Positions 13,145-38,250 of a stretch of DNA of 45,627 bases are shown in pieces (the first letter of the stretch is position 1; each line of letters begins with the position of its first letter). The position numbers were made by a program, and so were the translations under genes. The DNA is taken from positions 1 to 45,627 of the forward strand of contig JAZSJS010000087.1 of NCBI GenBank assembly GCA_045534435.1, read 5' to 3'. The notes beneath the pieces were generated by a model. It was not told the origin of the DNA, searched no databases, and saw only the letters and a program-made list of their open reading frames with translations. The DNA is from Eubacteriales bacterium. GTDB taxonomy: Bacteria; Bacillota; Clostridia; Oscillospirales; CAG-272.

Positions 13145-14764
13145 TTATTTGGGCAATCGGTCGCAAAACATCAAGAGATTTGCGGCGATCCTTTCATTCT
13201 CCTCAAGAGGACGGAGCGTGCCGTTCTCATACAGAATGTCCATGACCATGAGGGCAACTGCCGATCCGACAAATCCACCTGCGTTCCAATTGACGATAAG
13301 CTCCCGCATTTGCGGAGGATAATCCTTGGCGATCAGCGTTGCCTGTTCAAGTGCATAGTCTGCAAAGCTTCTCTTGGTTGCTTCATCCAGCGTCGGCAGC
13401 TTTGCGAAAAACGCATTTTGATCGCCACGCACGACCATAATATTGACCTTGTTATCACCGGTCAAATATCCGCGCTTTCTCAACCGCTGAAACTTCTCCT
13501 TGTTTGCGGGGACGTCCTCGATCGCGCCGATCATAAACTCATACAGATATTCATAATCCGAGGTGCGATTATTTTCCCAATACCCCTCGCGCGAAGAGTA
13601 GCGTGTGTCAATCGACCAGGAATAAACCGACGGATATTTTTCCGACCATCGGTTCATGTTGCCGCAAGCCCAATAGGGCGGATAGCTTCTTGACGGAACG
13701 TAATCGGGATCGCTCTGTGTTGCGGGAATATTAATAAAAGCAATAAAATCACCGCCTGCCAAGGTCTTGATGCGGTATTTTGAAAGATCCGTTTTGAGCT
13801 CGATCCCACATTTGTTGGTTACGGCCCAGAAGATCGCCGCAGCCTCCAACAGCTCGCGGTTTCCGCCCGGGATATAAACATCCTTAACGTCGGCAATCGC
13901 CGCCCTCACCTGCGGTACGTATTCACGAACCAAAATCTCGGCGATCTCCATTTGCTTTTGCAAGCGCTTGTCTTGCAGCTCAAGAGAATAGGTTTCGCTG
14001 TTGAACTTGACGTAGGTCGTATAGCGATTTCCGGATTGTCTTACCAAAAATCCGTTTGCCTCCAGCTCCTTCACAGTGTCCTCAATATAAACCGGAGTCA
14101 CTCCCAGCTCCTCTGCAATCTCCACCATGGTTTTGGGGGCGTGGTAAACACTGTAAACGATATTGAGATTCAATTTGTTGCCCAGATAATATTCGGGACC
14201 GCCGTTTTTCCCGGGATCTCCACTGTGACCAAAGCTATTCGCCTCGATTGGCTTGATGCCAAGCTTTCCAATTTTTCTTTCCATGATAAAACCCTCCTTC
14301 AGATCGTTTCTGGCTTTGTTGAGATGCCATTTGACTGTTCCCTCGGGAATGCCCGTTTCCTTGGTGATTGCAGAAATAGGCTTGTTTTGGTAATAAAATG
14401 AATAAACGATTTGGCGGCGCGTTTGTGTCAAAAACGCGATCTCACGCCGCAACAAAGCAAGCTCCTCCTCGGGATCCTCCTCCCAAACCGGGGTGTTGTC
14501 GGGGATCTCCATGTCGTCGATCGAAATTCCTTCTCTTCTTTTCTTGGAAGAGACAAATTTCGCATAAACGTGCTCGGAAATCCGCCAAATATATCCGTCC
14601 AAATTCAGGATCTCCTTTTCGGAAAGCAGAGACAAATAGACCTGTGTCACAATGTCGGAGCTCAGCTCCTCCGCCTCCTCATAGGAAAACGCTTTTTTCA
14701 TGGCAAAGCCATAAATTTTTGGCAGATATTGAACGATCAACTCATCTGCTTTCTGTTTATTCAT
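13145..14764 (-). CDS. Sigma-70/ECF-type sigma factor fused to a ~370-aa C-terminal extension (second wHTH plus unknown domain)
   Basis: Start at ATG 14764 (RBS gaggtga). Region 2-like (IVQYLPKIYGFAMKK..DIVTQVYLSL) and region 4-like (ISAITKETGIPEGTVKWHLNKARNDLK) segments lie in the first ~170 aa. A second HTH-like segment follows (TMVEIAEELGVTPVYIEDTVKELEANGFLV), then ~270 aa with no recognised motif. Confidence 0.7.
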   Translation of the reverse strand: MNKQKADELIVQYLPKIYGFAMKKAFSYEEAEELSSDIVTQVYLSLLSEKEILNLDGYIWRISEHVYAKFVSSKKRREGISIDDMEIPDNTPVWEEDPEEELALLRREIAFLTQTRRQIVYSFYYQNKPISAITKETGIPEGTVKWHLNKARNDLKEGFIMERKIGKLGIKPIEANSFGHSGDPGKNGGPEYYLGNKLNLNIVYSVYHAPKTMVEIAEELGVTPVYIEDTVKELEANGFLVRQSGNRYTTYVKFNSETYSLELQDKRLQKQMEIAEILVREYVPQVRAAIADVKDVYIPGGNRELLEAAAIFWAVTNKCGIELKTDLSKYRIKTLAGGDFIAFINIPATQSDPDYVPSRSYPPYWACGNMNRWSEKYPSVYSWSIDTRYSSREGYWENNRTSDYEYLYEFMIGAIEDVPANKEKFQRLRKRGYLTGDNKVNIMVVRGDQNAFFAKLPTLDEATKRSFADYALEQATLIAKDYPPQMRELIVNWNAGGFVGSAVALMVMDILYENGTLRPLEENERIAANLLMFCDRLPK

Positions 14765-14899
14765 CTGATCACCTCGGTACCGTTTGCCCATACAGTGGAA
14801 AGAACTGCAAAAAGGTTGGCGTTTCTTTGAAAAAAAGGAAACAAAAATTTTCAGTTCAACAAATGTTTATATAAAACACTTTCACTTTACTTGTGCTTG

Positions 14900-18077: not shown

Positions 18078-18163
18078 TGGTGGGAGATGGTGGATTCGGA
18101 CCACCGAAGCTAAAAAGCAACAGATTTACAGTCTGCCCCCTTTGGCCACTCGGGAAATCTCCC
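18078..18163 (-). tRNA. tRNA-Tyr (anticodon GTA), class II with long variable arm, CCA encoded
   Basis: Hand-folded: acceptor GGGAGAT/ATCTCCC, anticodon arm GCAGA-CTGTAAA-TCTGT, variable arm GCT-TTTT-AGC, T arm GGTGG-TCCGAAT-CCACC, then A-CCA. Confidence 0.85.
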
Positions 18164-18190
18164 ATATGAAGTCCACGGTGTGTGGACTTT

Positions 18191-18265
18191 TGGAGCTGGT
18201 GAACGGAGTCGAACCATCAACCTGCTGATTACAAATCAGCTGCTCTGCCATTGAGCCACACCAGC
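18191..18265 (-). tRNA. tRNA-Thr (anticodon TGT), CCA encoded
   Basis: Hand-folded: acceptor GCTGGTG/CACCAGC, D arm GCTC/GAGC, anticodon arm GCTGA-TTTGTAA-TCAGC, T arm GATGG-TTCGACT-CCGTT, then T-CCA. Confidence 0.9.
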
Positions 18266-18335: not shown

Positions 18336-18444
18336 GCCTTTTTTCAAAAAAAGATGAAAAAATCTTTCTTTAGTCTCATTCCCCTCTCTTTTTTGCCGCA
18401 AAAAAAGAAAAGAGCGCCGAAAAAGCCTTCGACGCCCTTTTTGA

Positions 18445-19431
18445 TCACACACTCTCCATGATCGCGCGATACAAATTTTGGGTATAAAGTCCAAACCCGA
18501 GATCGTTGGGATGGATGATAAAATCCGAATAGAAGTCCGAAATATGAGGCACAAAATCCCAGCCGCGGATCACACGCAGATTCGGAATATCCACGCAAAG
18601 CTCCTGCATCCATTCATGCACGCGGTAGGCGGGGATTCCGAACGCCGTCTTTTTCTCGGGCTCTCCGTACCACACGGGAGAGATGCCAAAAACCGAAGCC
18701 TCGGGATAGAGTTCATGCAAACGGCGGAAGAATGCCGGACAGTTTTTTCGAAAGGATTCGGGCGAGGTCTTGCGCCAATCGTTGATGCCGTATGCCACGG
18801 TGATGAAATCGGGCGCCTCGGGATCGGCATCCTGCAGCATTTCGGGGCAAAAGACGTCTCCACCGATTCCCTTGTTGGTCACGTCGGCATCCAAGAGCCT
18901 TGCCAATGCAATCGCGTAGGCATGCGAGGGATAAATGGCGTCGTAGCCCTGCGTGATCGAGTCTCCGAACGCAATCATCCTGCGCTTGCGAAAGAGCGGC
19001 TTGACAAAGCCGGCGCCCTCAAGCACGACGTTGCAAAGTCCCACCGTGCGCGACCACGGAAAATAGATTTCCACGGTCTTCTCCCCCTCCACGCGGAGCG
19101 GAAAGCTGACCTTCCCTCCCTGCATCGCGGAGCTTTCGCATCCCATGTGACGGATCATCGCGCCGTTGACGTAGACGTCAAACCAGGCATAGGCGCGGCT
19201 CGAGCCGACGAGCAACGCAAAATCAAAGGAAATTCCGGTCGCGTCGGTGGAAAAAGCCAGGTGAACACCTGCCGTCGCATTGGTTTTGTGGTAAAAGTCG
19301 ATTTGTCCCGCATCGAGATAGTACTGTGCCTGCGCCTCGGTAAAGCGGAAAAAGCGGAAATAGCCGTCCATTTCCTCCACACGGGTCACGCCCTTGGTGA
19401 TTGAGCGGATCTGCTCCAAATTCAGCTTCAT
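18445..19431 (-). CDS. SGNH/GDSL-family hydrolase with an N-terminal beta-sandwich-like domain
   Basis: Block I AFGDSITQG, block III GINDW, block V HPNDLG in the C-terminal half. Confidence 0.75.
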   Translation of the reverse strand: MKLNLEQIRSITKGVTRVEEMDGYFRFFRFTEAQAQYYLDAGQIDFYHKTNATAGVHLAFSTDATGISFDFALLVGSSRAYAWFDVYVNGAMIRHMGCESSAMQGGKVSFPLRVEGEKTVEIYFPWSRTVGLCNVVLEGAGFVKPLFRKRRMIAFGDSITQGYDAIYPSHAYAIALARLLDADVTNKGIGGDVFCPEMLQDADPEAPDFITVAYGINDWRKTSPESFRKNCPAFFRRLHELYPEASVFGISPVWYGEPEKKTAFGIPAYRVHEWMQELCVDIPNLRVIRGWDFVPHISDFYSDFIIHPNDLGFGLYTQNLYRAIMESV

Positions 19432-19452: not shown

Positions 19453-20742
19453 TCACGCTTCGCCCAGCATGATGCGAATGATCTCGCGATCTGTTCCGCT
19501 CATGCCGTCGCGTGCAAGTCTGCCAACGTTGCGAATAGTGTTCTCCACACCCTTGGTCACGATGCCGTCGCCGCCGTAGAACTGCCGCCCGGCGCGCATC
19601 ATTTCATATCCCATCACACCTGCCTCGACCGCCATCGCGATCTTTGCCGCACAGGATGCCTTGGCACCGTCGCAGATCGTGCCCGACAGGATGGCAACCG
19701 CATTGACCAGCGTGTGCGCGATCTCATAGTAGCGTCCGCCCTCCAAAAAGCAGATCCCTGTGCCGCATCCGCAGCCCGCACTGATCGCACCGCAATATGC
19801 CGACAGGCATCCGATTCCGGTCTTTTGATGCACGGTGATCAGATTGGAAACGATGAGCGCACGCAAAAGCGTTTCCTCATCGGCACCGATCGCACGTGCG
19901 TAAACGATCACGGGAACAGAGGCGGTAATGCCCTGATTGCCGCTGCCCGAAAGAATGCAGACAGGCTTCTCACATCCGCTCATTCTCGCGTCCGAGCCCG
20001 CCGCCGCATAGGCACGCGCGCGGTCACGCAGACTGCAGCTTCCGTTGGCATAGATCAGCTTTCCGATCGAAGCGCCGTAGTCTCCCGCGATTCCCTCCTC
20101 GGCAATTGCCATATTCATTTCGATCTGACGCAAAAGAAGCGGCTTCAGCTCCTCCAGATCGACCTCCTCCGCAAAGGTGATGATGTCCCTGACGTTGAGC
20201 AGCTCGCGGTCGGCTTGCCCTCCCGCATCGCACTCCTCTCGCACCGCACGGTAACGAGAGGTCAGATCGACACCGTCACGCTCCACACAATTGACGTTGG
20301 TATGGCGGTGCACCAGGTGCACGTACGCGCTATGCGTCTCCCAAATACCGGTCATCTCGATCTCAAACGGGTTGTCGGTCTCCAACTCGCGGATCTCCAG
20401 ATCCATGGTCTGCAGATAGCTTCCGAGCTCCGCGCGGCTTTGGTCGTTCAGAACGGTCAAGACCTCCAGCTTCTTCTCGGGACAGGCGGCGATCACGCCC
20501 GCGGCGATCGCCGCGGGAATCCCGTGCATCCCACCGGTTGCCGGCACAATGACACTCTTGACGTTCTTGATGATATTTCCGCTCAAGGCAACGCGGATGA
20601 TCCCCGGTCTTTCTCCGAGGGCATCCCGCAAAACCGATGCCGCAAAGGCGATCGCGATCGGCTCGGTGCATCCCATCGCGGGAACCAGCTCCTCCTTGAG
20701 GATGTCGCTGTATGTACGAATGACGTGTTGATCCAAGCTCAT
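19453..20742 (-). CDS. UPF0597 / YhaM(CyuA)-like L-cysteine desulfidase family protein (serine dehydratase alpha-like)
   Basis: Start at ATG 20742 (RBS aggaga). Family-typical N-terminus (LKEELVPAMGCTEPIAIAFAA), Cys-rich C-terminal half (CGAISAGCGCG, CDGAKASCAAK), about 430 aa like E. coli YhaM. Confidence 0.75.
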   Translation of the reverse strand: MSLDQHVIRTYSDILKEELVPAMGCTEPIAIAFAASVLRDALGERPGIIRVALSGNIIKNVKSVIVPATGGMHGIPAAIAAGVIAACPEKKLEVLTVLNDQSRAELGSYLQTMDLEIRELETDNPFEIEMTGIWETHSAYVHLVHRHTNVNCVERDGVDLTSRYRAVREECDAGGQADRELLNVRDIITFAEEVDLEELKPLLLRQIEMNMAIAEEGIAGDYGASIGKLIYANGSCSLRDRARAYAAAGSDARMSGCEKPVCILSGSGNQGITASVPVIVYARAIGADEETLLRALIVSNLITVHQKTGIGCLSAYCGAISAGCGCGTGICFLEGGRYYEIAHTLVNAVAILSGTICDGAKASCAAKIAMAVEAGVMGYEMMRAGRQFYGGDGIVTKGVENTIRNVGRLARDGMSGTDREIIRIMLGEA

Positions 20743-20768
20743 CACTCTCCTGCTTTCTGTCAAAAGAC

Positions 20769-21218
20769 TTATCCTTTTTGTTTGCTTCCAAAAAGCTTAC
20801 GCTTCACCCTTACGGCAAGCATCCACACAAGGTGGATCGGCTTTCGCAAGGGATAGATCGCATGCCAGACGGCAGCATAGCGACGATAGCGCCGATCATC
20901 TGCCATCACGTGACGGTCGCCGCGATAAAACTCGGTCACGACACCGAGAATCCACTCGTCCGGGACGGTCTCCTTGGCATAGGTATTGTCCCCTCGGATG
21001 ATATAATATCCGTCTCCGACACCGATGATGCGGTGAAGCACGTATTTTCCGTCGGGGCGCTTGTAAAGCGGCAGATCCCATTTGGAAAGCCGCCCCTCGC
21101 CCACCGGACGAATGATCACACGGTCTCGGCGATTCCGCAGCATCGGCCGCATACTCACACCGACGGTGGTGCTGACGTAAAAGCCCTGCTCGGCAAGTTG
21201 CTTTTCGATCGTATTCAT
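20769..21218 (-). CDS. Small cytoplasmic S24/S26-family serine peptidase (Ser/His, SipW/ER-type-like motifs)
   Basis: The real start is ATG 21218, overlapping the PqqD stop (ATGA). Motifs GVSMRPML (nucleophile Ser), LHRIIG (His where bacterial SPase I / LexA have Lys), YYIIRGDN. No N-terminal TM anchor. The long upstream extension in the tracked ORF is Arg/Gly-rich junk overlapping the PqqD gene. Confidence 0.7.
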   Translation of the reverse strand: MNTIEKQLAEQGFYVSTTVGVSMRPMLRNRRDRVIIRPVGEGRLSKWDLPLYKRPDGKYVLHRIIGVGDGYYIIRGDNTYAKETVPDEWILGVVTEFYRGDRHVMADDRRYRRYAAVWHAIYPLRKPIHLVWMLAVRVKRKLFGSKQKG

Positions 21219-21484
21219 TCCGCAAAAAGTCGGTTCTGTCTCAGCGTTTCCACAACGCCGCGAACGTCTGCGACAGCAACCTCGCGAGAGACCTCGTACT
21301 CGGCAAGCATCGCCTCCACCAGCTCCTCCTCGGTGCAATCCTTCTCTGACAGAAGTCTCCACAAAAACGCACCCGTCTCATTGAGCTGGATCATTCCGCG
21401 AAAGCTTTTGCTGGCTTCTCCGATCGGAACGGCAACGTAAGACGCACCCACCTTCTGAATGGTAAAATCCTGATTGATCTGCAT
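21215..21484 (-). CDS. PqqD-family protein (RiPP recognition element-type peptide chaperone)
   Basis: 89 aa, RBS aggaga. Typical PqqD pattern (LNETGAFLWRLLSEKDCTEEELVEAMLAEYEVSREVAVADVRGVVETLRQNRLF). Confidence 0.8.
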   Translation of the reverse strand: MQINQDFTIQKVGASYVAVPIGEASKSFRGMIQLNETGAFLWRLLSEKDCTEEELVEAMLAEYEVSREVAVADVRGVVETLRQNRLFAE

Positions 21485-21510
21485 AGTCGTTCTCCTGTTC
21501 TGTTTTTATG

Positions 21511-22209
21511 TTAAGATTTTCGCATGGTATTCCACGCCAAAAGCGCCGCCTCGTCGGAAATATTACATTCCAACACGTAATACGGCACGGCGCGCACAAG
21601 CGCATCCATCAAAATGAGCTGCTGCGTCACCGACTGACGGCTTCCGCGCAAATAAAGCTGATGCATCAGTCTGCTGATGACGTCCGACTCTGCAGCCGGT
21701 GTGATGCGATTCTCTGCTCCGCGCTCAATGAAGCAGACCGCCGCCAAGGGAGCGGAAATGTTCTCGCCCCAATTTTCCTTGCCGTTCCAGGGAGTTCCAA
21801 AGACGGTCATCGAGCCGTCCTCCTCCAAGCGGTAAAGCGGCTTGTCCCCGTTCAGAACACGCGCGTTCGGAACGTTTTTGAGCCAAAGCGCGGTATGCGT
21901 GGATTTTCCGACACCGCTTTTTGCGGTGAACGCGTAGGCATACCCATCAACCTCGATCACAGAGGAATGCATCAAAAAGATGTTGTACACGGGCAATTCC
22001 TCGCAAATATGACGGTAGAGGCAAATGCTTTCACAATATCCATCGGAAAACTCTCCGTACTTTTGCTCCTCCAGGATCTCATCGCTTGTAACCGATACCG
22101 TAAACGCGGCATCCGTTCCCTCACAGACAAAGCCGTGGCACTGACGCTCAATAAAGGAATATCGGTTGTCGATTCCGATCCGAATCCCTGCCAGCTTGAT
22201 GACAAACAT
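21511..22209 (-). CDS. HPr-kinase-related P-loop protein (HprK C-terminal-domain-like kinase)
   Basis: 232 aa, RBS agaggtg. Walker A TAKSGVGKSTHT preceded by LMHSSVIEVDGYAYAF, as in HprK-like kinases. No HprK N-terminal domain recognised. Confidence 0.65.
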   Translation of the reverse strand: MFVIKLAGIRIGIDNRYSFIERQCHGFVCEGTDAAFTVSVTSDEILEEQKYGEFSDGYCESICLYRHICEELPVYNIFLMHSSVIEVDGYAYAFTAKSGVGKSTHTALWLKNVPNARVLNGDKPLYRLEEDGSMTVFGTPWNGKENWGENISAPLAAVCFIERGAENRITPAAESDVISRLMHQLYLRGSRQSVTQQLILMDALVRAVPYYVLECNISDEAALLAWNTMRKS

Positions 22210-22232
22210 AGGGCACCTCTTTCTTTTTCTTC

Positions 22233-22261
22233 ATTTTAGCACAAAAGCCCTGCAAAAGCAA
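22233..22261 (-). promoter_or_regulatory. Extended -10 promoter for the HprK-like / PqqD / peptidase cassette
   Basis: Minus strand TTGCTT(22256-22261)-17 nt-(TGc)TAAAAT(22233-22238). Lies just downstream of a bulged hairpin that follows the EEP gene. Confidence 0.6.
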
Positions 22262-23269: not shown

Positions 23270-24004
23270 TCACGGTGCCCGAAAATTCACAATAGCATCG
23301 TACATCTGCTTGAATTCCTCATATTTTGCCTCATCGGCGGACGCTCCCCAAACGTAGGAACGCGGCAAAAGGATCAGCGTGTCGGCGGGCAGCACCTTCA
23401 GGGCGTCGTAATACTGATACAGCGCGGTATCTCCAAGTCGGATCGCGCATCCGTGTCGCGCGCCGACAGGCTCCGTCTCAAAAAGCTCACTCAGCGGAAC
23501 CGCCACCTCACGAAGATTGCGCTGCTCAAAGACGTATTCACTCACCAACCAGACGCCTGCTTCACCCGTCATGGTGTAGGTACCGAAGGTTGAAAGATTC
23601 TCGTTGGAAAGATGCTTGGCGCTCTCGAAGGCATAAAGATCGATATTTCCCTGCGCATCGGTATAAAGCGGACGAAGCTCCTCCTCGGGAGTCACCGAAA
23701 AGGTCGTCATGATGACAGAGGTCGGCTGGCGCTTGCCATCCACCGTCTTTTCGGGGGCAACCGCCTCAAAGACCTCGATCACGCGGTTTCTTTCGTCCTC
23801 GTTCATCGTGTAGCTTCCCGCATATGCCAGCGTGACGTCGCCAACCTCCTTGGTGGCACACTGCACAAAGCAGATCAGTCCGACAACAACAAAAAAGGCA
23901 ACGATGATCACAGGCCATTTGTAGTGATACCAAAAATTATCCAACCATTTCAAAAAACGGTTCTCAACGACGATCTCTCTCGCCGTGCTCTTTTCTTGTT
24001 TCAA
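23270..24004 (-). CDS. Membrane-anchored hypothetical protein (one N-terminal TM helix, extracytoplasmic domain)
   Basis: TTG start with RBS aaagga. Hydrophobic helix WPVIIVAFFVVVGLICFV. No recognised motif. Confidence 0.5.
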   Translation of the reverse strand: MKQEKSTAREIVVENRFLKWLDNFWYHYKWPVIIVAFFVVVGLICFVQCATKEVGDVTLAYAGSYTMNEDERNRVIEVFEAVAPEKTVDGKRQPTSVIMTTFSVTPEEELRPLYTDAQGNIDLYAFESAKHLSNENLSTFGTYTMTGEAGVWLVSEYVFEQRNLREVAVPLSELFETEPVGARHGCAIRLGDTALYQYYDALKVLPADTLILLPRSYVWGASADEAKYEEFKQMYDAIVNFRAP

Positions 24005-24026: not shown

Positions 24027-24638
24027 TTACGGTATCATATATCCCTTTCCTCTGACGGTTCGGATCAGCCTTCCCGGGCAGACCGACTCGAGCTTTTTTC
24101 TCAGATAACAAATATAGACGTCGGTCTTGTTTGCCGAAGATTCTCCGATGCAAACAGAAAGTGCCTGCCTTGAGACGGGAATGCCCCGATTTTTCAAAAG
24201 ACAGCTTACCACCGCATATTCACGCGGTGTGAGTACGATCCTCTGTCCGTCGATCTGCAACAAAGATTGCCCGGCATCCAGCAGCAGCTTGGTCTGCCTC
24301 GAGGACGGCTCCGGAGAAAGCATGGCCTCTCCCGCAAGCGCTCCCATCACCTCGCGACGCAAAAGCCGCATCTCAAACGGACGGTGCAGGATCATCGAGC
24401 AAAGGCGGCGCGTCTCGTCGTCGGCAAGTGCGGCTCCGCGAGTGAATCCGATCATTCGTCCGTAACAGGCGGCGTCGGGTGCCGCGGCACTGTCCAGATC
24501 CAGAAGCGCAACCTCTGAAAAAAGATCGCGATTCGGCTGCTCCAGCGTGATCACGCTCATATTCCTCGTCAAAAATTCCAACTCGAGCATACGCGCAAAA
24601 ACGGCATCGCCCGAATAGATCGCAATCTGACAGTTCAT
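24027..24638 (-). CDS. OmpR/PhoB-type winged-helix regulator with a degenerate receiver domain (orphan)
   Basis: The C-terminus is typical of the family (LTPREYAVVSCLL..G..VSRQAL..........NKTDVYICYLRKKLE......IRTVRGKGY). The N-terminal receiver lacks the DD pair (IAIYSGD) and has RPF in place of the conserved KPF. No histidine kinase gene adjacent. Confidence 0.7.
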   Translation of the reverse strand: MNCQIAIYSGDAVFARMLELEFLTRNMSVITLEQPNRDLFSEVALLDLDSAAAPDAACYGRMIGFTRGAALADDETRRLCSMILHRPFEMRLLRREVMGALAGEAMLSPEPSSRQTKLLLDAGQSLLQIDGQRIVLTPREYAVVSCLLKNRGIPVSRQALSVCIGESSANKTDVYICYLRKKLESVCPGRLIRTVRGKGYMIP

Positions 24639-35800: not shown

Positions 35801-36501
35801 GCGCGCTTTGCCTTCTCGGCCTCCTTTTGCAAGGGTCCGATGCGCCCCGAAATCTCCAGGAAGATGTCGTTGACGCGCGCCATATTGTCCTCGGTATCCT
35901 TGAGTTTTCGCTCCGCCTCGTTCTTCTTGTAGCGGTATTTTGCAATTCCCGACGCATCTTCAAAGGTGCTGCGTCTTTCCTCACTCTTTCTCGATACCAT
36001 CTCGGCAATTCGTCCCTGTCCGATGATCGAATAGCCGTCGCGTCCGATACCGGTGTTCATAAAGAGCTCGTAAATATCCTTCAGACGCACACCCTTGCGG
36101 TTAATGAAATATTCACTGTCTCCCGAGCGGTAATAGCGACGGGTCACGGTGACCTCGTCGTAGGGACAGTCCAGCTTCGCAAATTCTCCGCGATTATCAA
36201 AGGTGACCGACACCTCGGCATAACCCATCGGGCGGCGGCTGTCCGCACCGCCGAAGATCACGTCCTCCATTTTCGATCCGCGCAGAGATTTGGATGAGAT
36301 CTCACCCAAAACCCAACGCATCGCGTCGGCAATATTGGATTTTCCCGAGCCGTTCGGACCCACGATGACCGTCACGCCCTGTGCCGAGCCCTCGGCAGAA
36401 TCCATTCCCATCACCTGTATGTCGGGATGATTCTCGAAAACGAGCTTGGTTTTGTCGGGAAAGGACTTAAAGCCCTGCATTTCCAACGATTTCAGATACA
36501 C
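32818..36501 (-). CDS. smc: Chromosome segregation protein SMC
   Basis: Probable GTG start at 36501 (RBS ggagga) giving VYLKSLEMQGFKSF. Walker A GPNGSGKSN, long coiled coils, hinge, C-terminal LSGGE signature and Walker B (FCILDEIEAALD). Confidence 0.95.
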   Translation of the reverse strand: MYLKSLEMQGFKSFPDKTKLVFENHPDIQVMGMDSAEGSAQGVTVIVGPNGSGKSNIADAMRWVLGEISSKSLRGSKMEDVIFGGADSRRPMGYAEVSVTFDNRGEFAKLDCPYDEVTVTRRYYRSGDSEYFINRKGVRLKDIYELFMNTGIGRDGYSIIGQGRIAEMVSRKSEERRSTFEDASGIAKYRYKKNEAERKLKDTEDNMARVNDIFLEISGRIGPLQKEAEKAKRAIELMENKKKADVSLWLYDTEKLRVELTAAEEALQHATYDLDAAEDAIQSLETQNAKLFEASQGSKMESEVLLTKIHEQTELCHRLESEYRVSENTIAHAKDLIAATQGSVSSTEKSLQAEIETATAHATKIGELQTLESALTDKQNELTEEQKRLQDEERELDGKIAQALEEIRTLEGEAVDVKVRISVLENAKNTNTDKNSSALNELAEYQRISSELGAQCESKERTVAGYDAEIASIDAEISEAEQRLEKASGELKSASGRLNAETFRRDSIAQRIATFKAMDEHFEGYSNAVRYVMKAYEEGRITDAHGAPCGTIYGPLSKVISVEDKFITAIEIALGANLQNIVVEDEATAKAAMFALKKGEAGRATFFPLTSMRPSAPSKELTEAAGYPGFIGIADTLVTTDRRFADVLSSLLGKTVVFDTIDHANVMAKALHYRVRAVTLDGQQINVGGSFTGGSVRTGNGILSRAGEIKRLEGELATLEASVKKLQETLERAQKTLESVEDGKYAAEDRRELIAVLRNTENAQLEQLRAKLDANNTLLEKLKTDMRQYEESTARFEEDIESLGIEEKNILHRIKEITAFRQEKSNERGEVILRRDEVGRQLTDLYIRISETQKDIETETTLKATAEERIENLNRELMVFSGRINTQNEQIRMTNIAMEANRTAYAAANAELDLLNAKRGEVEKDNFEFERKLSDLNAKLRDRMNHKELVFREFTKCESKLAALRDTQDKLATKLWDEYELTRSDAAALGYPPVTKENRSEMMALQTECKNKLRVIGHVDLDAVNKYEELKVRYDYMNGQITDLEKAKKDLDGIIADLEVEMKTAFVDSFNKINENFGKVFAELFGGGSAELSLTDPENVLESGIEIKAAPPGKIIKSLMQLSGGEQAFIGVALFFAILQVNPTPFCILDEIEAALDEVNVERLAQYIKRYSDGTQFIMITHRRGTMAAADRLYGVTMPEHGISKVLMLDVNDISKKEGEDWNGIFG

Positions 36502-37532
36502 GGTTGTTCCTCCTCTCGGCGAGCCTCCTGCCATGCTGCGGCAACGATCCCTCGCCCCTCTTTCTCACCGACGATTTTACGAATACGGGTGTCGGTCTCC
36601 CGCAACAGTCTTTTGATATTTGTCCTGTGCTGCCCCACGATCTTGGAGATCTCTTTTTGAGGCACGTACAGCACGATCTCTCTTCCGCGCAGATCCGTGC
36701 GGTCAAGAGCAGTCAGGATTTCCTGATAATAATATGCATTCCAGACCATCTCTCCGAGCGCCGGATGATTCGGTCCCGCCATCACGCTTGCCTCGGAGGT
36801 CAAGCCCTCCCCGGCGCAAAGACCGATCCGGATACAGGGAATGCCTGCCGATGAAAAGATCCGAAGAACCTTTTCCGAGCGACAAACGGCCTCCTCTGCG
36901 GAAAGCGGTGTATAGTCACCGTTTTTCACCATCTCACACAGCTCGGTATCCCAAAAGACCACGGTGGGATAGATCCTTGCCGCGTCCGCGCCGAGCGCGA
37001 CGATCTCTCGCGCCGTTGCCGCCTCACTCTCCGGTGTCGCATCGGGAAGGCCGATCATCATCTGCCCCACGAGCGAAAATCCGGCGCGCTTGATCGCAAC
37101 ACAAGCCTTGCGCGCATCATGGGAGGTATGTCCTCTTTTGGTCCTTTGCAGAACGGTGTCGTCCATGCTTTGCAATCCGAGCTCGATGACGCGCACCGAG
37201 TAATGCGAAAGAATCTCCAGGATCTCGTCGTTGATATAGTCCGGACGGGTGGAGAGGCGAATCGAAGCCACTGTTCCCGTGCGAACGTATCTCTCTGCCG
37301 TATCCAGCAGTCGGCACATCAGTCCACGGTCGATTCCCGTGAAGGATCCGCCAAAAAACGCGATCTCGGTCTCGGTGCCCGTCGGAATCGTCCGGAGCGC
37401 GCGGTCGATCTGTCGCGCAACGTCCTCCTCACAAAACTCCGAGCAGCCCGAAATCGAACGCTGATTGCAAAACACGCATTGGTTCGGACACCCAAGGTGT
37501 GGAATAAAAATCGGAATATTGCGATGCGCCAT
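36492..37532 (-). CDS. ELP3-like radical SAM protein
   Basis: The real start is ATG 37532 (MAHRNIPIFIPHLGCPNQCVFCNQ, a CxxxCxxC cluster). Starts 1 nt after the rnc stop and overlaps the smc start by 10 nt. The tracked N-terminal extension overlaps rnc. Confidence 0.8.
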   Translation of the reverse strand: MAHRNIPIFIPHLGCPNQCVFCNQRSISGCSEFCEEDVARQIDRALRTIPTGTETEIAFFGGSFTGIDRGLMCRLLDTAERYVRTGTVASIRLSTRPDYINDEILEILSHYSVRVIELGLQSMDDTVLQRTKRGHTSHDARKACVAIKRAGFSLVGQMMIGLPDATPESEAATAREIVALGADAARIYPTVVFWDTELCEMVKNGDYTPLSAEEAVCRSEKVLRIFSSAGIPCIRIGLCAGEGLTSEASVMAGPNHPALGEMVWNAYYYQEILTALDRTDLRGREIVLYVPQKEISKIVGQHRTNIKRLLRETDTRIRKIVGEKEGRGIVAAAWQEARREEEQPCI

Positions 37533-37533
37533 G

Positions 37534-38250
37534 TCAGCTCTCAATGCCGAACAGCATGAGTGCATCACGGGCGGCTGCCTGCTCCGCGCTCTTCTTGGAG
37601 TGTCCCTTGCCGCTGCCGATGCGGTTGGAATCGAGATAAACCTCCACCGCAAAGGTCTTGTCATGATCGGGACCGCTCTCTCCCACCTGTCGGTACTCGA
37701 GCTTTCCCTGATCCTTCTGCACAAATTCCTGCAATCTCGATTTGCAGTCGGCATGATAGCCTCCCGCATCGGGAAGATTCTTCACCGCTTCTGCGATGAA
37801 GGGTAACAGAAATTCCGCCACTTGAGCAATTCCCTGCATCGCACCCGCATCGAGATAGATCGCCGCAAGCGTTGCCTCAAAGGCATCCGCGATCACCGCG
37901 GGCTTGTCGGCACCTCCCGTATTCCGCTCGCCCTTTCCGAGAAGCAGAAATTCACCCAAACCGATCCGTCTCGCATAGGATGCCAGCGCCTCCTCGCAAA
38001 CGACGGCGGCACGCATCCGCGTCAGGTCTCCCTCGGGCAGGTTGGGAAAGGTTTGATAAAGATAATCACTCGTAATGATCGAAAGCACCGAATCACCCAA
38101 AAACTCAAGCCGCTCGTTACAAAGCAGATGATGATTGTGTGCCCCGGTTTCGTTGGCATACGACGAGTGTGTCATCGCCTGCTTCAAAAGCGCAGAATCC
38201 CGGAAGCGGTAACCGATGCGTTTTTGCAATTCTTCCAACGGCTGTGTCAT
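37534..38250 (-). CDS. rnc: Ribonuclease III
   Basis: Start at ATG 38250 (RBS aaaggag). ERLEFLGDSVL signature and a C-terminal dsRBD (GPDHDKTF..GSGKGHSKKSAEQAAA). Confidence 0.9.
   Translation of the reverse strand: MTQPLEELQKRIGYRFRDSALLKQAMTHSSYANETGAHNHHLLCNERLEFLGDSVLSIITSDYLYQTFPNLPEGDLTRMRAAVVCEEALASYARRIGLGEFLLLGKGERNTGGADKPAVIADAFEATLAAIYLDAGAMQGIAQVAEFLLPFIAEAVKNLPDAGGYHADCKSRLQEFVQKDQGKLEYRQVGESGPDHDKTFAVEVYLDSNRIGSGKGHSKKSAEQAAARDALMLFGIES

What the first reader, a model, noticed from the sequence alone, without database searches (positions are those of the whole stretch)
20769..22261. Orphan HprK-like kinase / PqqD (RRE) / cytoplasmic S24-S26 peptidase cassette with no precursor peptide or core RiPP enzyme nearby
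**Seen in the sequence**
- Three tightly packed minus-strand genes sit behind their own extended -10 promoter (TTGCTT-17-TGcTAAAAT, 22233-22261), just after the hairpin that follows the EEP gene.
- Gene 1 is a 232-aa protein with an HPr-kinase-type P-loop (TAKSGVGKST).
- Gene 2 begins 26 nt later and is an 89-aa PqqD-like protein.
- Gene 3 begins with ATGA overlap to the PqqD stop (21215-21218), which suggests translational coupling. It is a 149-aa S24/S26 peptidase with GVSMRPML and LHRIIG (His in the position where bacterial signal peptidase I and LexA have the general-base Lys, as in SipW/ER-type S26B enzymes) and no N-terminal membrane anchor.

**Established knowledge**
- PqqD-like domains are the leader-peptide recognition elements of RiPP pathways.
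- HprK-like kinases phosphorylate lasso-peptide precursors (paeninodin type).
- As I recall, TIGRFAM defines an uncharacterised 'HprK-related kinase A + PqqD' pairing.

**Inference**
- I see no Asn-synthetase-like lasso cyclase, transglutaminase-like B2 protease, radical SAM/SPASM enzyme or ABC exporter.
- I see no short RBS-preceded ORF in the 110-bp upstream region or between the genes.
- The cassette could be a trans-acting recognise/phosphorylate/cleave module for an unlinked peptide, or something not yet described.
- It runs on, with no visible terminator, into a UPF0597 cysteine-desulfidase-like gene and an SGNH hydrolase.
Basis: partly seen in the sequence, partly recalled or inferred. 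Interest (0 to 1): 0.75.

Follow-up and report, generated by a model that had tools for sequence, protein, structure and literature searches.

The report
Orphan peptide-processing three-gene module
Three tightly packed genes (an ATP-binding kinase-like protein, a peptide-binding PqqD protein and a soluble signal-peptidase-like protease) form an uncharacterised module found across gut Clostridia; in some genomes it sits inside complete modified-peptide gene clusters, but here it stands alone with no peptide to act on within 45 kb.

Summary
On the minus strand lie g1 (21511-22209, 232 aa), a PqqD gene (21215-21484, 89 aa) and g3 (20769-21218, 149 aa), with a 26-nt gap and an ATGA overlap.

- **g1:** it has a PEPCK/HprK-type P-loop fold and belongs to the ScmC-like family, not to HprK proper.
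- **g3:** it is a soluble S26 peptidase. Its Ser22/His62/Asp77 align with the Sec11 catalytic residues.
- **Conservation:** the three genes co-occur in 61 of 76 untruncated species-level loci across Clostridia.
- **Full clusters:** in one clade the trio sits inside radical-SAM/SPASM clusters with an ABC exporter, sometimes an NTP_transf_5 gene, and an unnamed precursor family (leader YEKAxAEVxxFDNSDVITTSG, Cys-containing cores). Every such precursor I could check lies beside a trio.
- **This window:** its clade is trio-only. I found no precursor, SPASM enzyme or exporter in 45 kb, yet dN/dS is 0.05-0.15.

Most likely this is a functional module that recognises, ATP-dependently modifies and cleaves a peptide encoded elsewhere. 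The substrate and g1's chemistry are unknown. I rate it a new variant of a known kind, of moderate to high interest.

The parts
21511..22209 (-). g1: 232-aa P-loop protein of the ScmC-like family, with a PEPCK/HprK kinase fold. It is the most conserved member of the module.
   Evidence: ORF and P-loop SGVGKST. Precomputed Pfam assignment PF27840 ScmC. AlphaFold2 pLDDT 96.5. Foldseek top hits are ATP-PEPCK and HprK/P, E about 2e-6, probability 1.0. Invariant residues are E60, H81, S98, G99, G101, K102, T104, N120, D122, K123 and G143. dN/dS is 0.05-0.08.
21215..21484 (-). PqqD-family peptide-binding protein (RRE), 89 aa.
   Evidence: PF05402 at 67.7 bits against a cut-off of 23.4. Its best NCBIfam matches are lasso-type PqqD chaperones, below their cut-offs. 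It lies between g1 and g3 in 57 of 76 loci.
20769..21218 (-). g3: 149-aa soluble S26-type (Sec11/SipW-like) Ser/His peptidase with a basic C-terminal helix.
   Evidence: Invariant residues are G20, S22, M23, P25, H62, R63, G76, D77, N78, E83 and Y114. A family profile aligns S22/H62/D77 with the Ser-His-Asp of human SEC11A/C, and H62 with Lys77 of SpsB. Weak hit to TIGR02228. Foldseek finds LexA, SpsB, SEC11C and SipA. No transmembrane segment; the 109-143 helix has 10 K/R and 0 D/E.
22233..22261 (-). Candidate extended -10 promoter (TTGCTT-17-TGcTAAAAT) upstream of g1.
   Evidence: Read directly from the sequence. It was not listed by the consensus scan because the -35 matches only 3 of 6. 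Unverified.
19453..20763 (-). UPF0597/SDH_alpha-family gene about 26 nt downstream of g3 (likely ATG at 20742). It is probably co-transcribed but is not part of the conserved module.
   Evidence: PF03313, E = 4e-58. It follows the trio in the window, L088 and L089 only.
18445..19431 (-). SGNH/GDSL hydrolase gene, the last gene of the probable transcription unit. It is not part of the conserved module.
   Evidence: PF13472, E = 1e-19. It lies next to the trio only in L001 and L088.
18408..18441 (-). Intrinsic-terminator-like hairpin (15-bp stem plus T run) that ends the probable g1-to-SGNH unit.

Best explanation
The three genes are a functional, self-contained peptide recognition and processing module of the kind used in ribosomal peptide (RiPP) maturation.

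- **PqqD** binds the N-terminal leader of a substrate peptide. This is inferred from the family, and from the YxxP/A-E-hydrophobic leaders found next to homologous trios.
- **g1** is a PEPCK/HprK-fold P-loop enzyme that uses ATP on the bound peptide. Most likely it phosphorylates a Ser/Thr, as lasso-precursor kinases do. Alternatively it supplies the ATP dependence of cleavage. This step is inferred.
- **g3** is a cytoplasmic Ser/His S26 peptidase that removes the leader at a junction of small residues such as TTSG. This is inferred from its catalytic residues and from its being replaced by a CPBP protease in L070.

In this genome's lineage the module has no linked precursor, radical-SAM enzyme or exporter, so it must act on a substrate encoded elsewhere.

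**Shown here:** gene identities, folds, catalytic residues, conservation, context and purifying selection.
**Inferred:** substrate, chemistry and action in trans.
For: **Identities.** PqqD. g1 fold. g3 catalytic alignment.

**Functional linkage**
- The trio is adjacent in 61 of 76 loci, down to 40% g1 identity.
- Fusion proteins exist: g1+Peptidase_S24, g1+NTP_transf_5 and radical SAM+g1.
- In L070 a CPBP protease takes the place of g3.

**RiPP role in relatives**
- In one clade the trio is flanked by radical-SAM/SPASM maturases, a type-1 ABC exporter, an NTP_transf_5 gene in some loci, and 50-60-aa precursors with a conserved leader and Cys-containing cores.
- The precursor family has 387 clusters, all unnamed.
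- Every precursor locus with enough flank carries the trio.

**The orphan copy is functional**
- dN/dS is 0.05-0.15 for all three genes against L088, L089 and L001.
- All family-invariant residues are present.
- The whole window clade is trio-only, with varied flanks.

**Precedent from the literature.** HprK-like kinases phosphorylate lasso precursors using an essential His-Lys-Asp-Asp motif, and they pair with a nucleotidyltransferase (PMC9266682; PMC7533575).
Against: - No candidate substrate was found in the 45-kb window, or within 10 kb of any of the roughly 60 trio-only or trio+ABC loci.
- Every recognisable precursor of the associated family is linked in cis to its own trio, so action in trans has no observed precedent.
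- Six loci keep g1 and g3 without PqqD, and six have g1 alone, so leader binding by PqqD is not universal.
- g1 conserves His, Lys and one Asp, but the position of the second Asp of the lasso-kinase motif is N120 or G121. This rests on spacing only; no structural superposition was done.
- Some acidic cores (L033, L073) have no Ser/Thr/Tyr after the SG junction. A kinase there would have to act on the junction Ser or do something else.
- Many trios sit in conserved housekeeping synteny, which is unusual for secondary metabolism.
Confidence: 0.55

Rival explanations
1. Housekeeping protein-processing or regulatory module rather than peptide natural-product biosynthesis. g3 would cleave a pro-sequence or a regulator of an ordinary cellular protein, as SodX does for NiSOD or as LexA-type cleavage works. 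g1 would gate this by ATP or phosphorylation, and PqqD would act as an adaptor.
For: - The module is widespread and looks vertically inherited: at least 595 species-level loci, often in conserved housekeeping synteny (GroES/EL, adenylosuccinate lyase, dCMP deaminase, Lgt, FolD).
- No linked small ORF appears in about 60 loci.
- PqqD-less g1+g3 variants and g1-g3 fusions exist.
- g3 weakly matches the NiSOD maturation protease model.
- Purifying selection is strong.
Against: - Wherever a substrate can be identified, it is a short leader-core peptide with radical-SAM maturases.
- All characterised PqqD-family domains bind RiPP leaders.
- A single ABC exporter follows the trio in many of the loci with housekeeping synteny (33 loci carry one overall).
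- No candidate target protein co-varies with the trio.
Confidence: 0.25
2. g1 is not a peptide kinase. It would be the ATP-dependent partner of the protease, so that g1+PqqD+g3 together are the functional analogue of the ATP-dependent lasso leader peptidase B1/B2. The only job of the module would then be leader removal and hand-over to export.
For: - g1 always pairs with a protease: g3, a g1-S24 fusion, or a CPBP protease.
- Lasso leader removal is described as ATP-dependent (abstract of PMC9266682).
- The acidic cores of L033 and L073 have no hydroxyl residue after the junction.
- The second Asp of the kinase motif is not conserved.
Against: - The fold and the conserved His, P-loop Lys and Asp are those of phosphotransferases.
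- g1 is also fused to NTP_transf_5 and to radical-SAM enzymes. The kinase plus nucleotidyltransferase pairing matches PsmK/PsmN, in which the kinase product is the transferase's substrate.
Confidence: 0.15
3. Decaying remnant of a radical-SAM peptide cluster that lost its precursor, maturase and exporter, so the three genes no longer have a function.
For: Full clusters exist in a sister clade, and nothing for the trio to act on is visible in 45 kb.
Against: - dN/dS is 0.05-0.15 at dS of 0.6-2.
- All catalytic and invariant residues are intact.
- The reading frames are intact and tightly coupled.
- The trio-only state is shared by a whole clade (L001, L005-L017, L088, L089) and by several other clades.
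Confidence: 0.04

Closest known systems
Lasso-peptide leader handling and tailoring: B1 (PqqD) with the B2 protease, the HprK-like kinases PadeK/ThcoK/PsmK, and the nucleotidyltransferase PsmN
   Same: - A discrete PqqD chaperone; the window protein's best NCBIfam matches are lasso PqqD models.
- Leaders beginning Y-x-x-P/A-x-hydrophobic.
- An HprK-fold P-loop enzyme with conserved His, Lys and Asp.
- The same pairing with PF14907 nucleotidyltransferases, here even as fusions.
- A precursor, not the mature product, is the kinase substrate in lasso systems.
   Different: - No B2 transglutaminase-like protease and no Asn-synthetase-like cyclase turned up in the window or in the loci examined.
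- The protease here is a Ser/His S26 enzyme.
- g1 does not reach the Hpr_kinase_C or HprK thresholds.
- A C-terminal Ser, the lasso kinase target, is present in only some of the associated precursors.
SynChlorMet cassette (ScmC, ScmD PqqD-like, ScmE/ScmF radical SAM/SPASM; TIGR04248-04251) and Pfam PF27840 ScmC
   Same: g1 homologues carry the precomputed Pfam ScmC assignment. The pairing of a ScmC-like protein with a PqqD protein, and in one clade with two radical-SAM/SPASM enzymes, is the same.
   Different: - TIGR04249 scores 13 bits against a cut-off of 125.
- The SCM cassette has no S26 peptidase (my recollection of the TIGRFAM description).
- The window copy has no SPASM enzymes.
- ScmC itself has no known function.
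HprK-related kinase A / PqqD 'HPr-rel-A' system (TIGR04352-04355)
   Same: An uncharacterised pairing of an HprK-like P-loop protein with a PqqD-family protein and a nucleotidyltransferase. This is from recollection of the TIGRFAM descriptions; the only match here is a weak P-loop-region hit.
   Different: TIGR04352 scores 14.6 bits against a cut-off of 200, so g1 is not a member. No second kinase or amphi-Trp protein is present, and that system has no S26 peptidase.
ER/archaeal-type signal peptidases (Sec11/SPC18, SipW; S26B) and the soluble S26 NiSOD maturation protease SodX
   Same: - The GxSMxP, HR and GDN boxes align with the SEC11A/C Ser-His-Asp.
- The best family model is TIGR02228, and there is a weak hit to TIGR02754, the SodX model.
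- Like SodX, g3 has no membrane anchor and would cut a short N-terminal pro-sequence in the cytoplasm.
   Different: - Scores are far below the family cut-offs (21.8 against 51.85).
- There is no transmembrane segment.
- g3 has a basic C-terminal helix.
- It is encoded with, and sometimes fused to, a P-loop protein.
- I found no report of an S24/S26 enzyme as a RiPP leader peptidase.
HPr kinase/phosphorylase and ATP-dependent PEP carboxykinase
   Same: The fold (Foldseek probability 1.0, TM about 0.5), the P-loop with an upstream His, and a downstream acidic motif at similar spacing.
   Different: Only 11-15% identity, no HprK N-terminal domain, no sequence-level family membership, and a different gene context.
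Streptosactin-type radical-SAM RiPPs with a discrete PqqD (StsA/StsB/StsC)
   Same: The logic of a discrete RRE with a SPASM maturase. The non-Cys precursors of L033 and L073 weakly match the StsA leader model (E = 0.06-0.19).
   Different: The match is not significant, and Sts clusters are not described with a ScmC-like protein or an S26 peptidase.

Membership tests
PqqD / RRE (PF05402) | Pfam HMM score above the gathering threshold | tested here: met
   67.7 bits against 23.4, residues 16-86.
Lasso B1 PqqD chaperone (NF033530 / NF033536) | NCBIfam score above the curated cut-off | tested here: not met
   35.7 against 70, and 26 against 80. These are the best-matching subfamilies, but the protein is not a member.
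HPr kinase/phosphorylase (PF07475, TIGR00679) | Sequence-family HMM above the cut-off | tested here: not met
   g1 has no hit. The fused homologue P0190 scores 18.9 against 33.3, over the P-loop only.
HPr kinase/phosphorylase (PF07475, TIGR00679) | PEPCK/HprK P-loop kinase fold | tested here: met
   AlphaFold2 pLDDT 96.5. Foldseek hits 1kkm, 1jb1, 1ko7, 1knx and ATP-PEPCK at probability 1.0, E 2e-6 to 1e-4.
Lasso-precursor kinases (PadeK/ThcoK) | Conserved catalytic His-Lys-Asp-Asp motif (PMC9266682) | tested here: inconclusive
   H81, K102 and D122 are invariant in 44 sequences. The neighbouring positions are N120 and G121 rather than a second Asp. Correspondence was judged from spacing and from the HprK alignment starting at residue 79-81, with no structural superposition.
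Lasso-precursor kinases (PadeK/ThcoK) | Encoded in a cluster with a lasso cyclase (C) and a B2 protease | tested here: not met
   No Asn-synthase-like or transglutaminase-like gene was found in the window or among the recurrent neighbours in 80 loci.
ScmC (PF27840 / TIGR04249) | Family HMM match | tested here: inconclusive
   Precomputed PF27840 hits are unmarked for L088 and L089 and 'weak' for the others. The model is absent from the local Pfam copy. TIGR04249 scores 13.1 against 125.
ScmC (PF27840 / TIGR04249) | Cassette context with a PqqD homologue and two radical-SAM/SPASM proteins | tested here: not met
   The window has PqqD but no SPASM enzyme. Its only radical-SAM gene (36492-37769) carries Radical_SAM_C and is 14 kb away. 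The context is met in relatives such as L052, L084 and L105.
HprK-related kinase A system (TIGR04352-04355) | Equivalog HMM above the cut-off | tested here: not met
   14.6 bits against 200, over the P-loop region only.
Peptidase family S26, Sec11/SipW (S26B) type | Catalytic Ser, His in place of the general-base Lys, and the box-E Asp, in register with solved enzymes | tested here: met
   S22/H62/D77 align with GSMEP, HRV and GDN of SEC11A/C. H62 aligns with the Lys of KRVIG in SpsB. These residues are invariant in 33-69 homologues.
Peptidase family S26, Sec11/SipW (S26B) type | Family HMM above the cut-off | tested here: not met
   TIGR02228 scores 21.8 against 51.85. There is no Pfam hit for g3 itself. 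The fused homologue P0190 reaches Peptidase_S24 at 29.2 against 23.3.
Peptidase family S26, Sec11/SipW (S26B) type | N-terminal membrane anchor, with the active site outside the membrane | tested here: not met
   The Ser nucleophile is at residue 22. The maximum Kyte-Doolittle 19-residue score is 0.89.
Peptidase family S26, Sec11/SipW (S26B) type | Clan SF beta-barrel fold | tested here: inconclusive
   The model has pLDDT 84.7. Foldseek's best hits are LexA, SpsB, SEC11C, lambda cI and SipA, but at E about 1e-2 and mixed with SH3/Tudor barrels.
Radical-SAM RiPP clusters that contain the trio (the YEKAxAEV...DVITTSG precursor family) | Precursor ORF with the leader motif within the locus | tested here: not met
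   A leader HMM run with --max at E <= 50 finds no hit in the window, while it recovers all known precursors at 1e-9 to 1e-16. A regex search is also negative.
Radical-SAM RiPP clusters that contain the trio (the YEKAxAEV...DVITTSG precursor family) | Adjacent SPASM maturase and ABC exporter | tested here: not met
   Neither was found in the window genes scanned against Pfam. The g1 tree places the window in a trio-only clade.

The most novel reading that the evidence does not exclude
The g1/PqqD/S26 trio is a new, self-sufficient class of ATP-dependent peptide-maturation machine that is part of the core physiology of many gut Clostridia. It would act in trans on unlinked, still unrecognised substrates. 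Its S26 enzyme would be the first cytoplasmic signal-peptidase-type RiPP leader peptidase. Its ScmC-like P-loop protein would perform a chemistry not yet described for this fold, for example phosphorylating the invariant junction Ser to license cleavage, or energising cleavage directly. This would also assign a function to the large ScmC/HprK-related superfamily that co-occurs with PqqD proteins.
Probability: 0.3. Interest if true: 0.8.

Novelty: new variant of a known kind. Interest (0 to 1): 0.62.

Why it matters
**Scale of the unknown.** The ScmC/HprK-like plus PqqD pairing has long been noted in genome annotation, but it has no assigned function outside lasso tailoring. Here it is tied to a specific protease, a specific exporter type, radical-SAM maturases and a concrete family of hundreds of unnamed precursor peptides. 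These occur in prominent gut genera, including Faecalibacterium, Blautia, Pseudoflavonifractor, Lachnospira and Eubacterium.

**What becomes testable.** The function can now be tested in cultured isolates. It also points to a protease class, soluble S26, that I could not find reported as a RiPP leader peptidase.

**The orphan copy.** The copy in this window raises a sharper question: what does a strongly conserved recognise/modify/cleave module do when no substrate is encoded beside it?
- If it acts in trans, genome-mining rules that require co-localisation would miss its products.
- If it acts on a cellular protein, it is a new kind of regulated processing.

Tried and rejected
**Sequence and structure searches that gave little**
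- Local Pfam and NCBIfam gave nothing for g1, and only sub-threshold hits for g3.
- Sequence search of PDB chains with single proteins gave only noise.
- A g1 profile against PDB sequences hit mainly ABC-transporter P-loops, with PEPCK and HprK only at E = 0.007-0.14.

**Searches for a substrate**
- Conserved small ORFs around the trio: all-against-all clustering of 3,646 small ORFs yielded only out-of-frame artefacts, apart from the true precursor family.
- RBS-preceded ORFs flanking the trio in the window clade showed nothing conserved. A 57-aa ORF in L011 and L013 is an unrelated small protein.
- The 300-bp gaps in L001 and L089 contain hairpin repeats, not ORFs.

**Ideas rejected**
- SGNH, UPF0597 and the EEP gene as module members: they do not co-vary beyond the nearest relatives.
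- A lasso cluster split across the genome: no B2 or C gene appeared in any of the loci examined.
- The SCIFF peptide as the trans substrate: considered from memory only and set aside, because its leader lacks the Y-x-x-P motif and its maturase carries its own RRE. This was not tested.

**Literature and tool failures**
- Searches for ScmC, SynChlorMet, HprK-related, the leader motif, and S24/S26 together with RiPP found no description of this system.
- The first metagenome scan, using the 14-sequence precursor alignment, was rejected as too divergent and was repeated with 8 sequences.
Full report
**1. Observation**

The three minus-strand ORFs are exactly as described.
- g1 is 21511-22209, 232 aa, with the P-loop AKSGVGKST.
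- A 26-nt spacer containing GGAG follows.
- The PqqD gene is 21215-21484, 89 aa.
- g3 starts at the ATG of an ATGA overlap (21215-21218) and ends at 20769. It is 149 aa and contains GVSMRPML and LHRIIG.

The proposed extended -10 promoter (22261-22233) is present in the sequence. Its -35 matches only 3 of 6, and the consensus scan did not list it. No convincing terminator occurs until a 15-bp-stem hairpin at 18441-18408, after the SGNH gene. The probable transcription unit is therefore g1, PqqD, g3, UPF0597, SGNH. None of the three proteins has a hydrophobic segment near the transmembrane threshold.

**2. What the three proteins are**

*PqqD.* The 89-aa protein is a clear PqqD/RRE (PF05402, 67.7 bits). 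Its closest sub-threshold subfamilies are the lasso-type chaperones.

*g1.* It has no hit in the local Pfam or NCBIfam libraries. Its homologues carry a precomputed assignment to a newer Pfam family, PF27840 'ScmC'.
- With a 44-sequence alignment, AlphaFold2 gave a model of pLDDT 96.5.
- Foldseek matched it to ATP-dependent PEP carboxykinase and to HPr kinase/phosphorylase at probability 1.0, E about 2e-6 and TM about 0.5.
- The invariant residues are E60, H81, the P-loop S98-G-x-G-K102-x-T104, N120-G-D122-K123 and G143.
- The arrangement of a His upstream of the P-loop and an acidic motif about 20 residues after the Lys parallels HprK/P and the essential His-Lys-Asp-Asp motif of lasso-precursor kinases (PMC9266682). 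The second Asp position, however, is not Asp.
- g1 does not reach the thresholds of Hpr_kinase_C, TIGR04352 (14.6 against 200 bits) or TIGR04249 (13.1 against 125).
- It is therefore a distinct family within the HprK/PEPCK/ScmC superfamily.

*g3.* It is named 'S24/S26 family peptidase' by NCBI in relatives.
- In 33-69 homologues the invariant residues are G20, S22, M23, P25, H62, R63, G76, D77, N78, E83 and Y114.
- A family profile searched against PDB sequences returns mainly signal peptidases among its top hits. It aligns S22/H62/D77 with the GSMEP, HRV and GDN residues of human SEC11A/C, and H62 with the general-base Lys of S. aureus SpsB.
- The structure model (pLDDT 84.7) is a beta-barrel core followed by a long basic helix at 109-143, with 10 K/R and no D/E.
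- Foldseek's best hits are LexA, SpsB, SEC11C, lambda cI and SipA, at weak E-values.

**3. Comparative genomics**

g1 belongs to a large family.
- It has 1,309 clusters at 90% identity by the word-indexed search.
- Among 50%-identity representatives, 7,335 match at E <= 1e-3 and 583 at <= 1e-30.
- In the species-level genome collection, 595 of the first 600 candidate stretches were confirmed, all Clostridia among the 80 kept: Oscillospiraceae, Faecalibacterium, Blautia, Lachnospira, Eubacterium barkeri, 'Scatosoma' and others.

Gene content among the 76 loci not truncated by contig ends:

| Arrangement | Loci |
|---|---|
| g1-PqqD-g3, adjacent and in this order | 57 |
| All three genes, other order | 4 |
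| g1 + g3, no PqqD | 6 |
| g1 + PqqD only | 3 |
| g1 alone | 6 |

Further evidence of linkage:
- Fusion proteins link g1 to Peptidase_S24, to NTP_transf_5 (PF14907) and to a radical-SAM/SPASM maturase.
- In L070 the third position is taken by a CPBP/Rce1-like intramembrane protease, giving g1-PqqD-CPBP with the same ATGA coupling. In five loci g1 is followed directly by a CPBP gene. This swapping of proteases argues that the third gene supplies the proteolytic step.

Recurrent neighbours are as follows:

| Neighbour | Loci |
|---|---|
| Single type-1 ABC exporter (~555 aa, no C39 domain), right after g3 | 33 |
| SPASM radical-SAM maturases | 8 |
| PF14907 nucleotidyltransferases | 7 |

The EEP gene never co-varies with the trio. 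Outside the near-syntenic L088, SGNH recurs only in L001. UPF0597 follows the trio only in the closest relatives, L088 and L089.

**4. The complete clusters and a new precursor family**

In the radical-SAM loci a 50-60-aa ORF follows g3 or precedes a maturase. It has the leader M..YEKAxAEVxxF(D/T)N(S/R)DVITTSG, a variable poly-Gly linker, and one of several core types:
- CxTWSNQNGxxC(H/Y)(Y/F)GLT
- CRxPGWDRGNGCxxxSGxCPGxxWK
- ...GGDLNPPLS
- GKDEWNWGEIDDEFGC

A profile of these peptides finds 387 clusters, all 'hypothetical' or unnamed and with no Pfam or NCBIfam family.

Variants with Y-x-x-P-E-(I/M) leaders and acidic cores lacking Cys occur in loci that have no radical-SAM gene; L073 and L034 also carry NTP_transf_5:
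- E. barkeri L073: MEKQKYEKPEMEIQEFEIEDIMSSGNNEGEGDFDFN
- L033: ...EDIIAASGPDFDEGDVGFGW
- L034

Every precursor locus with adequate flank has the trio beside it. This covers the genome loci, L084-L087 and 12 metagenome loci. The features common to all precursors are Y, (P/A)E, F, D(V/I) and an invariant Ser before the junction. These are therefore what the common trio must read.

**5. The window's copy**

A neighbour-joining tree of g1 sorts the loci by context type. The window falls in a clade (L001, L005-L017, L088, L089) that is trio-only and has varied flanks.

The 45.6-kb window is housekeeping. It encodes LeuRS, FtsY, SMC, PlsX, TrmFO, TopA, TrkAH and an LCP protein, among others. Its only radical-SAM gene is of the Radical_SAM_C type. 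The leader HMM and motif searches find nothing in it.

All three genes are nevertheless under strong purifying selection. dN/dS is 0.045-0.08 for g1, 0.10-0.15 for PqqD and 0.07-0.15 for g3, at dS of 0.6-2. The orphan state is therefore stable and the genes are functional.

**6. Mechanism**

*Shown here:* the folds, catalytic residues, linkage, and the association with leader-core peptides, SPASM maturases and exporters in relatives.

*Inferred:*
- PqqD binds the leader.
- g1 uses ATP on the bound peptide. Phosphorylation of a Ser/Thr is the most economical reading, given the fold, the His/Lys/Asp residues and the PsmK/PsmN-like link to PF14907.
- g3 removes the leader at the small-residue junction. 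T-T-S-G fits the preference of S26 enzymes for small residues at -1 and -3; that preference is established knowledge, not something tested here.
- The basic helix of g3 may dock the complex at the membrane or on the exporter. This is speculation.

A variant reading is that g1 energises or licenses cleavage rather than leaving a stable modification. For the window the substrate must be unlinked, which has no precedent among the recognisable precursors. The alternative of a cellular-protein substrate therefore keeps real weight.

**7. Comparison with known systems**

The module works like the lasso B1/B2 leader-handling pair combined with the PadeK/PsmK-type tailoring kinase. It is not a lasso system, because it lacks B2 and C genes and the kinase and PqqD models are below their cut-offs. 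It shares the ScmC-PqqD(-SPASM) logic of the SynChlorMet cassette and of the HPr-rel-A system, but fails both equivalog models. The peptidase is catalytically Sec11/SipW-like but soluble, as SodX is.

Literature searches found no description of the trio, of an S24/S26 RiPP leader peptidase, or of the leader motif.

**8. Verdict**

The window holds an orphan but functional member of a widespread, uncharacterised module for peptide recognition, ATP-dependent action and cleavage. I rate it a new variant of a known kind, with interest 0.62.

The main unknowns are the substrate of the trio-only form and the chemistry of g1. Both are now testable in cultured isolates that carry the full cluster.

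Noticed in passing
L021:11469-11654, L029:8164 and 11561, L044, L047, L052:11508-11678 and 13363, L058, L072; L084-L107: An unnamed precursor-peptide family of 387 clusters. It has the leader YEKAxAEVxxFDNSDVITTSG, a poly-Gly linker and several Cys-containing core classes. It is always next to SPASM radical-SAM genes and the trio, in Faecalibacterium, Blautia, Pseudoflavonifractor and others. It looks like an undescribed radical-SAM RiPP family.
   Followed up: partly
L073:8965-9080 (Eubacterium barkeri VPI 5359); L033:9344-9460: Precursors in loci without a radical-SAM gene have acidic cores with no Cys and no hydroxyl residues (GNNEGEGDFDFN and GPDFDEGDVGFGW). If the core starts at the Gly of the SG junction, both have Asp at position 8, the spacing of a lasso-type Gly1-Asp8 macrolactam, yet no lasso cyclase is evident. 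With only two related sequences, this may be shared ancestry and nothing more.
   Followed up: no
L070:10001-11997; also L018, L040, L059, L062: A CPBP/Rce1-like intramembrane protease replaces the S26 peptidase, giving g1-PqqD-CPBP in L070 and g1-CPBP without PqqD in the other four loci.
   Followed up: partly
Proteins P0125, P0231, P0227, P0190, P0210 (not in the window): Natural fusions of the g1 domain with NTP_transf_5 (PF14907), with a radical-SAM/SPASM maturase, and with a Peptidase_S24 domain.
   Followed up: partly
window 18078-18265 (-), promoter 18335-18307 (-): A tRNA-Thr(TGT) and tRNA-Tyr(GTA) pair lies just downstream of the SGNH terminator. It is preceded by a perfect 12-of-12 sigma-70 consensus promoter with an extended TG.
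   Followed up: no
L001:10696-10994; L089:7455-7772: Gaps of about 300 bp within or after the trio in close relatives contain G+C-rich palindromic repeats (for example ccccTTTGAGGGGaag and ccCTCAAGGGGaag) and no convincing ORF. These look like small inserted repeat elements.
   Followed up: no
window 19453-20763 (-); L088:6055-7344; L089:7772-9061: A UPF0597/SDH_alpha-family (cysteine-desulfidase-like) gene follows the trio in three close relatives, although their outer flanks differ. It is absent in L001 and in all more distant loci. This is a lineage-specific association of unknown meaning.
   Followed up: partly
window 24027-24638 (-) and 23270-24004 (-): A 203-aa protein has an OmpR-type Trans_reg_C DNA-binding domain but no recognisable receiver domain. 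Next to it is a 244-aa protein with no family hit. The pair is syntenic in L088.
   Followed up: no
window 13145-14791 (-): A 548-aa protein has sigma-70 region 4 and HTH hits only in its N-terminal third. The remaining ~380 aa has no family match.
   Followed up: no
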